Positions 49,495 through 64,000 of a stretch of 64,000 nt of DNA are shown here, piece by piece. This stretch comes from a virus. The position numbers and the translations under genes were made by a program. Location: IMG/VR virus record IMGVR_UViG_3300020724_000005. One strand, written 5' to 3'. Each line of letters opens with the position of its first letter. Position 1 is the first letter of the stretch. The notes under the pieces were generated by a model. That model worked only from the letters and a program-made list of their open reading frames with translations. It did not search any database and had not been told where the DNA came from.

Positions 49495-49740
49495 TTAGAG
49501 CTGTGACCTGAGCTGTGACCTGAGCTGTGACCTGAGCTGTGACCTGATGAGCTGTGAACCGAGCTGTGACCTGAGCTGTGAACCGAGCTGTGAACCGAGC
49601 TGTGACCAGAGCTGTGAATAGAGCTGTAACCTGAGCTGTGACCAGAGCTGTGAACCGAGCTGTGAATAGAGCTGTGAATAGAGCTGTGAATTGAGCTGTG
49701 AATAGAGCTGTGAATTGAGCTGTGAATCGATCTGCTTCAT
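49495..49740 (-). CDS. xSQL tetrapeptide-repeat microprotein, copy 1
   Basis: MKQID then ~19 units xSQL (x = N,Y,G,W,R); ATG 3 nt after TACATTTA box; stop right after array. Confidence 0.5.
   Translation of the reverse strand: MKQIDSQLNSQLYSQLNSQLYSQLYSQLGSQLWSQLRLQLYSQLWSQLGSQLGSQLRSQLGSQLIRSQLRSQLRSQLRSQL
49498..49728 (-). repeat. 12-nt tandem array GAGCTGTGA+NNN
   Basis: about 19 head-to-tail units; 9 nt constant, last 3 nt variable; open in all frames. Confidence 0.95.
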
Positions 49741-49803
49741 ATCTAAATGTACGTCTTTTTTGTGAAAATTTTAAGCCATTCTCTAAAGTCCGGCCCAAAC
49801 AGC

Positions 49804-50190: not shown

Positions 50191-50331
50191 TTAAATTAAT
50201 TGTGAAGTGATCATTTGGGACATATCGTAGTAAGGATCTAGGGCTATTATAATTGGAGATCTTCCTTCGAATATTAAAGACGCTTTGGGAAAAAGATCAG
50301 ATAAGTCCCAAAATAAGTCTGTCTTTTTCAT
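50191..50331 (-). CDS. hypothetical 46-aa protein
   Basis: track start 50376 is TTG; ATG 50331 overlaps upstream stop as ATGA. Confidence 0.4.
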   Translation of the reverse strand: MKKTDLFWDLSDLFPKASLIFEGRSPIIIALDPYYDMSQMITSQLI

Positions 50332-50507
50332 TTTCTTGAGTCTATGTTTAATGCGTTGACTATCTCCCAAAGGCAATCCCCAGTCGAGTTGAAGATGTTA
50401 TCCTCGGTATACCACGCTGCCTCTACTTCGTCTTGCCCATACATGTCTTCGAACGCCGCGTTGATCCTTGGCGGAACTGGGTCTATGAAATATTTTGTCT
50501 GTTTCAT
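50328..50507 (-). CDS. hypothetical 59-aa protein
   Basis: MKQTKYFIDPVPPRINAAFEDMYGQDEVEAAWYTEDNIFNSTGDCLWEIVNALNIDSRK; more protein-like than overlapping track ORF 50398..50625. Confidence 0.45.
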   Translation of the reverse strand: MKQTKYFIDPVPPRINAAFEDMYGQDEVEAAWYTEDNIFNSTGDCLWEIVNALNIDSRK

Positions 50508-50655
50508 ATATACATTTTTCTGGGATACTCAAATTTTCCTGGGGTTTGGAGTCGGCTTTTTTGCTTTTTTGCCCAAAACCCGGCGGCCGGATCTGCCCTT
50601 CGAGTAAGTATGCCCTGTTGTTCATATCTAAATGTACCTCTTTTTTTGGTCATCA

Positions 50656-50847: not shown

Positions 50848-50973
50848 CCTGTTAGCGAGCAGCGATGCCTCTTCGTATCCATTAGAAGAGGGGGGTGACG
50901 TGTAGTACTTTCATATGTTGTATATATTTTTTTGTCAGACGTTGAAAAATTCCCGTGTGCGTAAGTTTACCTT

Positions 50974-51112
50974 AGGCGGGGCCCCCCCTGCTAGCAGGCC
51001 CCTAGCACCATAAATGTGAGCCTTTGGCAGAATGCCAGCATCATGCTAGTGCGCCGCCTCCAAGCTGCCAGCTCAGAAGATCTCCGATACAAAAAAGGTA
51101 CCGGCCCCGCCT
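50974..51112 (-). ncRNA. GC-rich structured element (candidate ncRNA; strand uncertain)
   Basis: AGGCGGGGCC (50974) pairs with GGCCCCGCCT (51103); competing partner GCGCCGCCTCC (51051); internal palindromes CCTGCTAGCAGG, GGCAGAATGCC; no ORF. Confidence 0.35.
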
Positions 51113-51117
51113 CCTAG

Positions 51118-51381
51118 CTAGACCATCGCGCCCGTGTAGTACAGGTGCTCTTTTTCTATCATGTGTGTCGTCACGTGGCACTCCAGCTCTCTGAGCACTT
51201 GAGAGCTCAAGATCTCCTCTAGGGTGTCTACCAACACGTAGTCATCGAACCGCTGGCCTCCGTGCTCTTTCTTTATGCCTATCGAGTAGGTGATCTTGTC
51301 TTCTGTGGCTATCGCCGCCTGGTAGCTTACGTTCTTGCTCAGCCAATAGAGAACTGAGTCTCTGTCCATTATGCGTGTCAT
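51118..51381 (-). CDS. hypothetical protein
   Basis: start set to MTRIMDRDSVLYW (ATG 51381) just after cassette C2. Confidence 0.5.
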   Translation of the reverse strand: MTRIMDRDSVLYWLSKNVSYQAAIATEDKITYSIGIKKEHGGQRFDDYVLVDTLEEILSSQVLRELECHVTTHMIEKEHLYYTGAMV

Positions 51382-51458
51382 GCTGTTGTTGTTTGGTATG
51401 ATGTAAAAGTACGCAATACTTTTTACATTTTTCATTTTTTGGTCGTATATTTGTTTTT
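51382..51458 (-). promoter_or_regulatory. intergenic cassette C2
   Basis: sense box TACTTTTACATCATACC; opposite strand TTTACA(51422)-N18-TATATTTG(51446-51453). Confidence 0.5.
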
Positions 51459-51602
51459 TTAACGCATCACCTCTGACTCTATCCTCTTGGCGATCTCGTC
51501 TAGGTCGTCTGCTGAGACCTCTAGCCAGTATGTGCCAGTGGCGTACTCGTTGAATATCTTCTTTATCTGGTCCTGTATGGACTCGCTGTTCTGTGCGTTC
51601 AT
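51459..51602 (-). CDS. hypothetical 47-aa protein (paralog of 53782..53940)
   Basis: MNAQNSESIQDQIKKIFNEYATGTYWLEVSADDLDEIAKRIESEVMR. Confidence 0.5.
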   Translation of the reverse strand: MNAQNSESIQDQIKKIFNEYATGTYWLEVSADDLDEIAKRIESEVMR

Positions 51603-51686
51603 GCTGATCTGTGTTTGTGAGAGCCCAGGCCATCATCTGACTAATTCCTTGCCGCGCTCTTGGCCAGGTAGCCTGGGCTCCCATGT

Positions 51687-51932
51687 CTACATATGGCTCA
51701 GCGTACTACTGAGCTGTGAATCGAGCTGTGACCTGAGCTGTGAATTGAGCTGTGACCAGAGCTGTGAATCGAGCTGTGAATCGAGCTGTGACCAGAGCTG
51801 TGAATCGAGCTGTGACCTGAGCTGTAAATTGAGCTGTGAATAGAGCTGTTCCCTGAGCTGTGACCTGAGCTGTGAACCGATCTGTGACCTGAGCTGTGAA
51901 TTGAGCTGTGACCTTACGTCTATCTGTTTCAT
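51687..51932 (-). CDS. xSQL tetrapeptide-repeat microprotein, copy 2
   Basis: MKQIDVR then ~17 xSQL units (x = N,R,G,Y,D,W,E). Confidence 0.5.
   Translation of the reverse strand: MKQIDVRSQLNSQLRSQIGSQLRSQLREQLYSQLNLQLRSQLDSQLWSQLDSQLDSQLWSQLNSQLRSQLDSQLSSTLSHM
51711..51914 (-). repeat. 12-nt tandem array GAGCTGTGA+NNN
   Basis: same unit as 49498..49728. Confidence 0.95.
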
Positions 51933-54602: not shown

Positions 54603-54764
54603 TTATATAGACCAAGACCCAGACCCAGACTCAGACCAAGACCCAGACCCAGACCTAGACCCAGACCTAGACCTAGACCAAGACCTAGACCAAGACCCAG
54701 ACCAAGACCAAGACCCAGACCAAGACCTAGACCCAGACTTCTTTTTAAATTTAATACAGCTCAT
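54603..54764 (-). CDS. S-x dipeptide-repeat microprotein
   Basis: MSCIKFKKKSGSRSWSGSWSWSGSWSRSWSRSRSGSRSGSGSWSESGSGSWSI; ATG 2 nt after upstream stop. Confidence 0.45.
   Translation of the reverse strand: MSCIKFKKKSGSRSWSGSWSWSGSWSRSWSRSRSGSRSGSGSWSESGSGSWSI
54610..54739 (-). repeat. 6-nt tandem array GACC(C/A/T)A
   Basis: about 21 units; minus sense TCT-NGG with N = G/A/T. Confidence 0.95.
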
Positions 54765-55063: not shown

Positions 55064-55657
55064 TTATATAGCCTTTAGTTGATACTTCTTTCCATCTATC
55101 TCTACTACTTTACCCTCGCAGCAATCTTCTTTTGGTAATCCGGTCTCAATTAACTCACCGTAACACACTTGACCTAGTACTAATTTGCCTACTTTTATTT
55201 GCATCTCTTCTTTAGTAGGTATTTTCCAAGTAGTTAATCCGGCAAATATTCTTAGTTTACTTGATAGCTCTCCTTTACAAATTATACCCCAACCAGCTTC
55301 AATACCCCAACCAGCTTCAATACCCCAACCAGCTTTAATACCCCAACCAGCTTCAATACCCAAACCAGCTTTAATACCCCAACCAGCTTTAATACCCCAA
55401 CCAGCTTTAATACCACAACCAGCTTTAATACCCCCACCAGCTTTAATACCCCCACTAGCTTCAATACCATCGCCAGCTTCAATACCACTACCAGCTTTAA
55501 AGTATATATTACCGGAAGCAGTTAAGTGGCCTTTGAATTTTACTGTTCCGAGGTCTTCTTCTGCTTCTATATGTCCTTGGTAGTTACTTAGGTCTTCTTT
55601 ACCTACGTAGTAATTGTCTTTGTCTAAATGCTCTTTTTTAATTAGAAATGTGTTCAT
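55064..55657 (-). CDS. hexapeptide-repeat (beta-helix-like) protein
   Basis: 197 aa; eleven GI(K/E)AGx units flanked by non-repetitive N- and C-domains. Confidence 0.65.
   Translation of the reverse strand: MNTFLIKKEHLDKDNYYVGKEDLSNYQGHIEAEEDLGTVKFKGHLTASGNIYFKAGSGIEAGDGIEASGGIKAGGGIKAGCGIKAGWGIKAGWGIKAGLGIEAGWGIKAGWGIEAGWGIEAGWGIICKGELSSKLRIFAGLTTWKIPTKEEMQIKVGKLVLGQVCYGELIETGLPKEDCCEGKVVEIDGKKYQLKAI
55284..55500 (-). repeat. 18-nt tandem array
   Basis: ATACCCCAACCAGCTT(C/T)A units, ~12 copies, encode GI(K/E)AG(W/G/L/C/S/D). Confidence 0.9.
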
Positions 55658-63362: not shown

Positions 63363-63671
63363 CTATTTTCTTTCGGTGATCATGAAGTTTAGTATGGTCT
63401 TTTGCAGATCGTTGAGAGCTTGGGTGTTGTCCTGTATCAGTTTTGACATCCTGTCTCTCTCTTCTACAAGCAGATCGTTCATCTCCTGCTGTACTCGGTC
63501 GATCTTCTCTTCCAGCATCTCGTTCCTTTCTACCAGCTTTTGATACTGTTGGAACGCTACGTAGGCCAAAACGACCGTTATCACTCCCAGGATCCCGTAC
63601 TGAAGGACGTAATTCTGTATCCCCTCTGCGTTGACCGGGTTTGCTGGGACCTCTAACATGGATCTGAACAT
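63363..63671 (-). CDS. hypothetical TM + coiled-coil protein
   Basis: 102-aa ORF. Confidence 0.5.
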   Translation of the reverse strand: MFRSMLEVPANPVNAEGIQNYVLQYGILGVITVVLAYVAFQQYQKLVERNEMLEEKIDRVQQEMNDLLVEERDRMSKLIQDNTQALNDLQKTILNFMITERK

Positions 63672-63702: not shown

Positions 63703-63852
63703 CTATTTGCCAGATTTGTATCTTTCTATCAGTCCTTTTGCGTAAATTTTCAAGCTGCCTATCTTTATATCTACTCCGTTGAAAGTCAGATAGAAAGTAA
63801 ATAGGACGAATGATATTATCCTGATGACGTTTAACTTATTGATCTTCTTCAT
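63703..63852 (-). CDS. 49-aa TM peptide
   Basis: MKKINKLNVIRIISFVLFTFYLTFNGVDIKIGSLKIYAKGLIERYKSGK; ATGA overlap with stop of xSQL copy 3. Confidence 0.35.
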   Translation of the reverse strand: MKKINKLNVIRIISFVLFTFYLTFNGVDIKIGSLKIYAKGLIERYKSGK

Positions 63853-64000
63853 GCTTTTATGTTTTGGAGCTGTGAATCGAGCTGTGACCAGAGCTGTAAA
63901 TTGAGCTGTGAACCGAGCTGTGAACCGAGCTGTGACCAGAGCTGTGAATTGAGCTGTGACCTGAGCTGTGACCTGAGCTGTGAACCGAGCTGTGAATAGA
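63849..64000 (-). CDS. xSQL tetrapeptide-repeat microprotein, copy 3 (5' end outside window)
   Basis: same frame ...DSQLQNIKA stop at 63849-63851; array runs to window edge. Confidence 0.45.
   Translation of the reverse strand, partial: YSQLGSQLRSQLRSQLNSQLWSQLGSQLGSQLNLQLWSQLDSQLQNIKA
63867..64000 (-). repeat. 12-nt tandem array GAGCTGTGA+NNN (truncated by window)
   Basis: same unit as 49498 and 51711 arrays. Confidence 0.95.

What the first reader, a model, noticed from the sequence alone, without database searches (positions are those of the whole stretch)
63849..64000. xSQL repeat microgene, copy 3 (runs off the window)
The third array has the same GAGCTGTGA+NNN unit. The SQL frame terminates ...DSQLQNIKA-TGA, and its stop overlaps the ATG of a 49-aa TM peptide as ATGA (63852). 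Translational coupling to a downstream gene in the SQL frame is the best internal evidence that this frame is the one read.
Basis: seen in the sequence. Interest (0 to 1): 0.65.

Follow-up and report, generated by a model that had tools for sequence, protein, structure and literature searches.

The report
Detached repeat-helix microgene of a phage
This is the tail end of a real 69-codon phage gene made almost only of the four-residue repeat x-Ser-Gln-Leu. It is a free-standing copy of the fast-changing helical repeat that normally sits inside an uncharacterised phage protein family (DUF6745). In four unrelated phage lineages such mini-genes lie next to a DUF6745 gene that has lost its own repeat.

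Summary
Window 63867-64000 is a 12-nt array (GAGCTGTGA+NNN). Its minus-strand xSQL frame ends ...DSQLQNIKA-TGA, and the stop overlaps the ATG of a 49-aa membrane peptide as ATGA.

A public contig that is 100% identical over 3.8 kb extends the window. The gene starts 58 nt beyond the edge with ATG (MNEINSQL...), one base after the stop of the upstream gene, and is 69 codons long. The start is not MKQID, and there is no TACATTTA box.

Two more copies and a repeat-less DUF6745 homologue (340 aa) lie just upstream in the same operon.

Only the xSQL frame can be started: 25 of 25 arrays have an in-frame ATG, against 0 of 25 for the other two forward frames. The ATGA overlap is kept in five orthologues of 29-69 codons.

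In full-length DUF6745 proteins the same tetrad is encoded by different codons (TCA, AGC or TCG for Ser), so the peptide is what is selected. The x codon varies only at its first two bases.

AlphaFold2 predicts one continuous helix (pLDDT 94).

The genes are accessory: a complete 158-kb relative has none. They also evolve about 12 times faster than their flanks.

Function is unknown. The best guess is a detached helical subunit of a split DUF6745 protein.

The parts
63849..64000 (-). 3' part (49 codons plus the TGA stop) of xSQL microgene copy 3. The full gene is 69 codons and starts at virtual coordinate 64058 (L001 1953-2162).
   Evidence: JGI's gene caller also calls it as a 69-aa gene on a 157,443-bp contig.
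63867..63996 (-). 12-nt tandem array. On the minus strand the unit is NNN-TCA-CAG-CTC = x-S-Q-L.
63849..63852 (-). ATGA: the microgene's TGA stop overlaps the ATG of the next gene. This is a translational-coupling junction, conserved in 5 orthologous loci.
63703..63852 (-). 49-aa gene for a small hydrophobic, presumably membrane-spanning peptide, downstream and coupled to the microgene. The exact sequence is seen on 32 public contigs.
63363..63671 (-). 102-aa gene (hydrophobic N-terminal stretch plus helical tail), the next gene of the conserved block.
49495..49740 (-). xSQL microgene copy 1 (81 aa, MKQIDSQL...), a paralogue.
51687..51932 (-). xSQL microgene copy 2 (81 aa, MKQIDVRSQL...), a paralogue.

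Best explanation
Copy 3 is a genuine, translated 69-codon gene of an uncultured T4-like phage of about 157 kb. It lies in an operon on the minus strand: repeat-less DUF6745 homologue (340 aa), xSQL microgene, xSQL microgene, 66-aa gene, xSQL copy 3, 49-aa hydrophobic peptide, 102-aa protein.

It starts one base after the stop of the 66-aa gene, and its own stop overlaps the next start (ATGA). Ribosomes therefore most likely pass from gene to gene.

The product is nothing but tetrads. The first tetrad is M-N-E-I (M-K-Q-I in the paralogues), that is, a tetrad whose variable residue is Met.

It is a free-standing version of the hypervariable central repeat of DUF6745 proteins, and it is predicted to be one helix about 100 Angstrom long, with Leu at every fourth residue.

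Inferred, not shown: the helix acts as a separately encoded subunit that pairs, coiled-coil fashion, with itself or with the repeat-less DUF6745 core. This would be a split version of the usual one-chain protein. Its length and its one variable residue per turn would be kept diverse by selection in some phage-host or phage-phage conflict.

The arrays change by gain and loss of units and by conversion between units. New copies insert at the 5' ends of genes and borrow their start regions.
For: Extension and start:
- L001 equals the window at 100% over 3,782 bp.
- ATG at L001 1953, and TAA of the upstream gene at 1949-1951.

Reading frame:
- An in-frame ATG with no intervening stop is present in 25/25 arrays for the xSQL frame and 0/25 for each other forward frame.
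- The FTAx frame that runs into the 49-aa gene has no ATG, GTG or TTG.

Conservation:
- The block 340-aa / arrays / 66-aa / microgene / 49-aa / 102-aa / 78-aa is found in 5 further contig lineages. All keep the ATGA overlap while the microgene ranges from 29 to 69 aa.

Selection on the peptide:
- All 120 listed DUF6745 proteins, of 749 with E <= 1e-5, were screened for a central tetrad repeat. In most it is xSQL; variants include xDQV, xSAV, xSNL and xSQI.
- The codons differ between lineages (TCA-CAG-CTC, TCA-CAG-CTT, AGC-CAG-CTC, TCG-CAG-CTT) but are uniform inside each gene.
- The x codon varies at bases 1-2 while base 3 stays fixed. In L018, 10 of 12 bases are invariant over 41 units.
- A DUF6745 profile matches copy 3 at E 3.6e-13 over its repeat columns.

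The split arrangement recurs:
- The 340-aa neighbour is a DUF6745 homologue over its whole length but lacks the repeat (hhalign 99%, E 4e-18).
- The same pairing of repeat-less DUF6745 with adjacent tetrad microgenes occurs in three other unrelated phages that use other codons or tetrads: L062, L198 and the complete 83-kb G012.

Structure:
- AlphaFold2 gives a helix over residues 2-68 with pLDDT 94.4.

Fast evolution:
- Against a 99.4% identical strain there are 7 substitutions plus a 24-nt indel in 492 nt of arrays, compared with 7 substitutions in 6,221 nt of flanks. Fisher p = 2e-5, and all 7 array substitutions are non-synonymous.
Against: - There is no direct evidence of transcription, translation or a stable peptide.
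- The microproteins are absent from the 15-billion-protein collection.
- Within the T4-like group the 9-mer TCACAGCTC is almost invariant (340/343 TCA, 343/343 CAG). A DNA- or RNA-level constraint therefore cannot be excluded there, and the copies share ancestry, so they are not independent.
- The genes are dispensable. Relatives with 81-89% identical neighbours lack them, and a complete 158-kb genome has none.
- Copies 1 and 2 are 12-14 kb away from the DUF6745 homologue.
- A lone 100-Angstrom helix from AlphaFold says nothing about partners.
- The DUF6745 fold matches nothing in the PDB, and no paper mentions the family. The functional part is therefore inference.
Confidence: 0.68

Rival explanations
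1. Selfish or neutral minisatellite. The array is a recombination-prone DNA repeat, originally copied from a DUF6745 gene, that has inserted into operons. It is translated only because insertions that break translational coupling of the downstream gene are lost. The peptide itself has no function.
For: - Presence/absence polymorphism among close relatives, and none in a complete 158-kb genome.
- The same slot holds other unrelated ORFs, or nothing, in relatives.
- The cluster upstream of the 66-aa gene is flanked by a direct repeat of that gene's start region, AAAATGAAAGTTATGA.
- Copy number ranges from 0 to 5 per site, and turnover is fast.
Against: - Free-standing tetrad microgenes with their own ATG recur in four unrelated lineages with different codons and tetrads, each time next to a repeat-less DUF6745.
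- The x codon shows variation at bases 1-2 only, which fits selection on the residue.
- The start, the stop and the Q-N/K-N/E-N tail are kept across orthologues.
Confidence: 0.2
2. The functional unit is the DNA or RNA repeat (protein-binding iterons, a recombination hotspot, or an RNA sponge), and the open frame is incidental.
For: - The 9-mer is nearly invariant inside the T4-like group.
- The period of 12 nt is close to one DNA turn.
- All three forward frames are free of stops inside the array, because of the unit's composition.
Against: - The same peptide repeat is written with other codons elsewhere, including AGC versus TCA for Ser, and as xDQL or xGQL microgenes.
- ATG and stop flank the array only in the xSQL frame.
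- No Rfam family matches 48-64 kb.
- Non-12 unit spacings inside arrays are multiples of 3, with one exception that ends an ORF.
Confidence: 0.08
3. The array is read in the FTAx frame as an N-terminal extension of the 49-aa membrane peptide, or it is reached by frameshifting.
For: The FTAx frame is continuous with the 49-aa ORF in copy 3, and with the downstream ORF in copy 1.
Against: - In that frame there is no ATG, GTG or TTG between the upstream stop (L001 1958-1960) and the 49-aa gene's own ATG.
- 0/25 arrays have a start in that frame.
- Relatives have the 49-aa gene without any array.
Confidence: 0.02
4. The arrays are silent donor cassettes that diversify the repeat of a DUF6745 gene by gene conversion, as pilS cassettes do for pilin.
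For: Several dispersed copies with different x series, and conversion-like double substitutions between strains.
Against: - This phage's DUF6745 homologue has no repeat to convert.
- No repeat-bearing DUF6745 gene is present in the window.
- Every cassette keeps its own start and stop.
Confidence: 0.02

Closest known systems
Central tetrad repeat of DUF6745 (Pfam PF20530) proteins of phages and prophages
   Same: - The repeat is the same: x-S-Q-L with a 12-nt unit.
- The x codon is hypervariable and the unit number varies.
- A profile of the family matches copy 3 over the repeat columns at E 3.6e-13.
- The gene sits next to a DUF6745 homologue.
   Different: - The microprotein has neither the ~75-aa N-terminal domain nor the ~206-aa DUF6745 domain. 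It is the repeat alone, with its own start and stop.
- DUF6745 itself has no known function, no solved structure, no PDB fold match and no literature.
TAEL / ELSA / TELS tetrad repeats in the dimerisation (coiled-coil) regions of type I restriction specificity subunits HsdS (EcoR124I/II, Mycoplasma pneumoniae)
   Same: - A 12-bp tandem repeat encodes four residues of the pattern small-small-E/Q-Leu, just over one helical turn.
- Copy number changes by slippage or unequal crossing-over and alters the length of an alpha-helical spacer (PMC3874165, PMC8836594).
- The microprotein is predicted to be fully helical.
   Different: - HsdS repeats are few (2-3; more in Mycoplasma) and lie between DNA-recognition domains.
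- They show no hypervariable position.
- The only sequence link is a weak PADLOC match to an HsdS model (E 1.6e-3, 15.9 bits).
- This is a resemblance in how it may work, not membership.
Repeat proteins with one or two hypervariable residues per otherwise identical unit (e.g. TALE repeats)
   Same: The units are nearly identical at the DNA level, and variation is confined to one codon per unit. This resemblance rests on my own knowledge.
   Different: - The unit is 4 residues rather than about 34.
- There is no evidence of nucleic-acid binding.
- No sequence or fold relation was tested or expected.

Membership tests
DUF6745 (PF20530) repeat module | Tandem tetrads x-[S/D/N/G]-Q-[L/I/V] encoded by 12-nt units | tested here: met
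   The family-wide repeat is shown. The profile built from alignment A2 matches copy 3 at E 3.6e-13 over profile positions 79-127.
DUF6745 (PF20530) domain protein | C-terminal DUF6745 domain (206 positions) above the Pfam cut-off of 27 bits | tested here: not met
   No DUF6745 hit for any microprotein. The neighbouring 340-aa protein scores 19.9 bits with Pfam, below the cut-off, but is homologous by profile comparison (99%, E 4e-18).
DUF6745 (PF20530) domain protein | N-terminal ~75-aa domain (consensus M-I-x-K-L-T-x-E-Q-E-x-x-I-P...) | tested here: not met
   The microprotein starts directly with tetrads.
Split DUF6745 arrangement (proposed here) | A repeat-less DUF6745 gene within about 2 kb of free-standing tetrad microgenes | tested here: met
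   - This phage: the DUF6745 homologue is L001 171-1193 and the arrays run from 1310.
- L062.
- L198.
- G012/L208.
- Not met for L106, whose record is 42% complete.
HsdS coiled-coil tetrad repeats (type I R-M) | A 12-bp repeat encoding about one helical turn with Leu every fourth residue, alpha-helical | tested here: met
   Period 12. AlphaFold2 gives a helix over residues 2-68 with pLDDT 94. The precedent comes from PMC3874165 and PMC8836594. The helix is a prediction only.
HsdS coiled-coil tetrad repeats (type I R-M) | Homology to HsdS, with flanking target-recognition domains | tested here: not met
   The only match is a weak PADLOC hit, E 1.6e-3 and 15.9 bits, to model positions 159-221. 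There are no flanking domains.
DUF826 (PF05696) | Score above the curated cut-off of 25 bits | tested here: not met
   14.6-20.9 bits and 12.8 bits in related records. This is a low-complexity resemblance.
Diversity-generating retroelement target | Variation confined to positions that are adenine in a template repeat, plus a reverse transcriptase nearby | tested here: not met
   The adenines of TCA and CAG are invariant (340/343 and 343/343) while only the x codon varies. No template repeat was seen. A reverse transcriptase was not searched for in the whole genome, which is not held.

The most novel reading that the evidence does not exclude
The tetrad microproteins are exchangeable helical subunits of a split DUF6745 machine. 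The phage keeps a repeat-less core and several separately encoded rods. The length of each rod (13-19 turns) and its single selected residue per turn (mostly D, R, Y, G, W, N) would set spacing or partner specificity. This would resemble the TAEL ruler of type I restriction enzymes, but be made modular and kept diverse by an arms race with the host or with rival phages.
Probability: 0.2. Interest if true: 0.8.

Novelty: new variant of a known kind. Interest (0 to 1): 0.58.

Why it matters
DUF6745 is a large phage family with no known function. At least 749 proteins match at E <= 1e-5, and many sit on ~40-kb phage contigs or next to replication and recombination genes.

Its most striking feature is a helix-forming tetrad repeat whose DNA is homogenised except for two bases per unit. 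That pattern points to strong diversifying selection on one residue per helical turn.

In four unrelated lineages the repeat is encoded as separate microgenes beside a repeat-less core. This indicates that the repeat is an independent functional module, and it gives a simple experimental handle: express the core with and without the rods.

The work also adds real, very small, low-complexity genes to T4-like genomes. Such genes are missing from a 15-billion-protein collection that was searched here, and assemblies often break at these arrays.

Tried and rejected
- Whole genome of the window: not held. The 157-kb JGI contig could not be searched as a record.
- Near-identical phage records in GenBank: none.
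- Protein search with the 69-aa product: it found only N-terminal fragments of DUF6745 proteins cut at the repeat. Exact look-up of five microproteins found none in the collection.
- Literature on DUF6745 / PF20530: none.
- Solved-structure sequence search and Foldseek of the DUF6745 model against the PDB: no match with E <= 0.001.
- PHROGs and PADLOC: nothing informative.
- DUF826: below cut-off.
- Diversity-generating retroelement: rejected, because the adenines outside the x codon are invariant.
- TACATTTA box as a general signal: not enriched. It belongs to a ~25-nt element in front of copy 1 and of a leader at 50,625-50,650.
- Rfam on 48-64 kb: no family.
- Fold-back charge complementarity of the x residues: none (z = -0.4). 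Only avoidance of identical neighbours was seen (z = -5.6).
- Codon-agnostic DNA scan: mostly unrelated QLQL-type repeats. Two AGC-codon hits were a KPAP-repeat protein read in another frame.
- Orthologous fused versus split states at the same locus: the repeat-bearing relative L032 is not syntenic.

Full report
**1. The observation**

Window 63867-63996 is a period-12 tandem array with 10.8 copies and consensus GAGCTGTGAACC. Two sister arrays lie at 49498-49726 and 51708-51911. The two-unit pattern matches 41 times in the window and never in 100 shuffles.

On the minus strand the unit reads NNN-TCA-CAG-CTC, which is x-S-Q-L. That frame ends ...WSQLDSQLQNIKA with TGA at 63851-63849. The ATG of a 49-aa hydrophobic ORF (63703-63852) is at 63852-63850, so the two overlap as ATGA.

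**2. Extending beyond the window**

No genome is held for this window. An exact-match scan of IMG/VR found contig L001 (5,792 bp), and L001 2011-5792 equals window 64000-60219 at 100% identity over 3,782 bp.

In L001 the xSQL frame opens with ATG at 1953, which is virtual window coordinate 64058. It runs for 69 codons: MNEINSQLDSQLNSQLYSQLYSQLGSQLRSQLRSQLNSQLWSQLGSQLGSQLNLQLWSQLDSQLQNIKA. The ATG lies one base after the TAA of an upstream 66-aa gene (L001 1751-1951).

The start is not MKQID and no TACATTTA box precedes it. That octamer is not enriched in the window (7 sites against 3.6 expected). It is part of a ~25-nt element in front of copy 1 and of a leader near 50,640.

Upstream in L001 lie two further microgenes (1310-1513, 67 aa; 1514-1750, 78 aa) and a 340-aa gene (171-1193). 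JGI's own gene calls on an identical 157,443-bp contig include the 69-aa gene.

PHROG matches in the window fit a T4-type phage: an SbcC-like nuclease, a primase and baseplate wedge proteins. The Bacteroidota host is taken from earlier notes and was not tested here.

**3. Which frame is read**

All three forward frames are stop-free inside the array, simply because of the unit's composition. An open frame alone therefore proves nothing.

Among 25 distinct arrays of this phage group, an in-frame ATG with no intervening stop precedes the array in 25/25 cases for the xSQL frame. It is within 8 codons in 23 of them. For each of the other two forward frames the count is 0/25.

The FTAx frame, which is continuous with the 49-aa gene, has no ATG, GTG or TTG between its upstream stop and that gene's own start.

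The first four codons, M-K-Q-I or M-N-E-I, are themselves a tetrad whose variable residue is Met.

**4. Conservation and coupling**

The block 340-aa / arrays / 66-aa / microgene / 49-aa / 102-aa / 78-aa recurs in five other contig lineages: L004, L005 (with L011 and L014), L006 and L013. The copy-3 orthologue is 29, 53, 53, 65 or 69 codons long, and in every case its stop overlaps the 49-aa gene's ATG as ATGA.

In relatives without the microgene, the 49-aa start is likewise overlapped by the end of whatever ORF lies upstream. That is the 66-aa gene itself in L028, a DUF6717 gene in L026, and a 126-aa ORF in L030.

Coupling does not by itself show that the peptide matters, because changes in unit number keep every frame.

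**5. The peptide is what is conserved**

A search with a repeat-bearing relative (L015) found 749 proteins at E <= 1e-5, nearly all carrying Pfam DUF6745. All 120 listed proteins were screened for a central tetrad repeat. In most it is xSQL, and the variants include xDQV, xSAV, xASV, xSNL and xSQI.

The codons differ between lineages: TCA-CAG-CTC, TCA-CAG-CTT, AGC-CAG-CTC and TCG-CAG-CTT. Inside any one gene they are uniform.

The x codon varies only at its first two bases, while its third base is fixed within a lineage. In L018, 10 of the 12 bases are identical in all 41 units. Synonymous sites frozen by homogenisation, together with two free non-synonymous bases, point to selection for diversity at x, or less likely to a site-specific mutational process.

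A diversity-generating retroelement is excluded, because the adenines of TCA and CAG never vary.

Over 2,321 x positions the residues are D 22%, R 19%, Y 15%, G 14%, then S, H, W and N. Identical neighbours are avoided (z = -5.6).

**6. A split architecture**

The 340-aa neighbour aligns with a DUF6745 profile over residues 4-335 (99% probability, E 4e-18). It has a short non-repeat linker where the family has its tetrads. The window itself holds no DUF6745 N- or C-terminal domain.

The same arrangement was found in three unrelated phages:
- L062 (GC 56%) has a bona fide repeat-less DUF6745 (Pfam E 1.9e-19) with xSQL micro-ORFs written with AGC on both sides.
- L198 has a repeat-less DUF6745 preceded by xDQL microgenes that start M-T/I-K-H-K-Q-I/L-N. 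Two of the three share ATGA overlaps with the upstream gene.
- G012, a complete 83-kb phage, has four tetrad microgenes around a 293-aa repeat-less DUF6745. One of them overlaps its start.

A fifth microgene carrier, L106, showed no core, but its record is only 42% complete.

Conversely, with the other codon sets the arrays lie almost always inside full-length genes. This recurrence is the main reason to think the free-standing repeat works together with the core. It is an inference from synteny only.

**7. Structure**

AlphaFold2 models a DUF6745 protein well (pLDDT 84), but its repeat region only as low-confidence helices. The model matches nothing in the PDB.

The copy-3 microprotein is predicted as one helix over residues 2-68, with pLDDT 94.4 in the best model and 90 or more in all five. 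That is a rod of about 100 Angstrom, which presumably needs a partner.

The closest documented precedent is the 12-bp TAEL repeat of EcoR124I/II, together with the ELSA and TELS repeats of Mycoplasma pneumoniae HsdS. These are helical, lie in coiled-coil spacers, and change in number to alter spacing (PMC3874165, PMC8836594). A PADLOC match of the microprotein to an HsdS model is too weak to count (E 1.6e-3).

**8. Dynamics**

The comparison is with a 99.4% identical strain (L010). Copies 1 and 2 carry 7 substitutions and a two-unit deletion in 492 nt. The flanks carry 7 substitutions and one indel in 6,221 nt (odds ratio 12.8, p = 2e-5). All 7 array substitutions change an amino acid.

Relatives whose 340-aa gene is 81-89% identical have no arrays nearby. 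A complete 158-kb relative has none at all. The microgenes are therefore accessory.

Where arrays precede the 66-aa gene, the cluster is bracketed by a direct repeat of that gene's start region, AAAATGAAAGTTATGA. Array-less relatives have a single copy of it. New copies thus appear to insert at the 5' ends of genes and to use their initiation regions.

**9. Verdict**

Three things are shown:
- The ORF is complete.
- Only the xSQL frame can be started.
- The coupling junction is conserved.

Strongly supported by comparison: the repeat belongs to the DUF6745 tetrad module and is selected as a peptide.

Inferred: it is a detached helical subunit of a split DUF6745 protein and is under diversifying selection.

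Unknown: what DUF6745 or the rods do.

The main rival is a tolerated, self-propagating minisatellite whose translation merely preserves coupling.

Noticed in passing
L039 2975-4834 (compare L037 3176-4834): A DUF6745-like ORF whose tetrad array switches frame in mid-array, from xSEL to V/I-A-N-L/F for about 45 units and back to xSEL. The near-identical L037 reads xSEL throughout. Either this is a compensated pair of frameshifts that is tolerated, or it is an assembly artefact.
   Followed up: no
window 55064-55657 (-): A 197-aa ORF with about 12 hexapeptide units G-I-K/E-A-G-W, encoded by an 18-nt tandem repeat (55284-55500). It is a second fast-looking repeat protein in this phage.
   Followed up: no
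window 54609-54738: A further tandem array of period 6/18 (AGACCAAGACCAAGACCC, 7 copies). It lies outside any ORF of 60 aa or more.
   Followed up: no
window 50510-50650 (-) and 49741-49770 (-): The ~25-nt element AAAAAGA(G/C)GTACATTTAGATATGAA stands directly in front of microgene copy 1. It also stands in front of a GC-rich, hairpin-prone ~110-nt leader that precedes the 59-aa gene 50328-50507. It looks like a shared promoter/start module, and it recurs in L002, L009 and L010.
   Followed up: partly
window 50900-51684 (-): The 188-aa ORF downstream of copy 2 has an Arg/Gln-rich, GC-rich N-terminal half (GC about 0.5 against 0.35-0.45 around it) that does not look like the rest of the phage. 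The real start may lie further downstream, or the stretch may be non-coding.
   Followed up: no
L026 5461-5886; L030 5765-6145: In relatives, the slot between the 66-aa and 49-aa genes that copy 3 occupies here holds a DUF6717 gene instead (Pfam E 1.2e-12). This slot is a hot spot for accessory genes.
   Followed up: partly
many loci (e.g. L003, L042, L048, L054, L096): Public contigs very often end inside these arrays: 33 of 118 array-bearing frames in one scan were cut by a contig end. The repeats break short-read assemblies, and truncated DUF6745 fragments populate protein databases.
   Followed up: partly
L016 2758-3441: A pentapeptide-repeat protein gene lies two genes upstream of a full-length DUF6745 gene in a 43-kb phage contig, beside SSB, a DnaB-like helicase and an HNH gene.
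   Followed up: no
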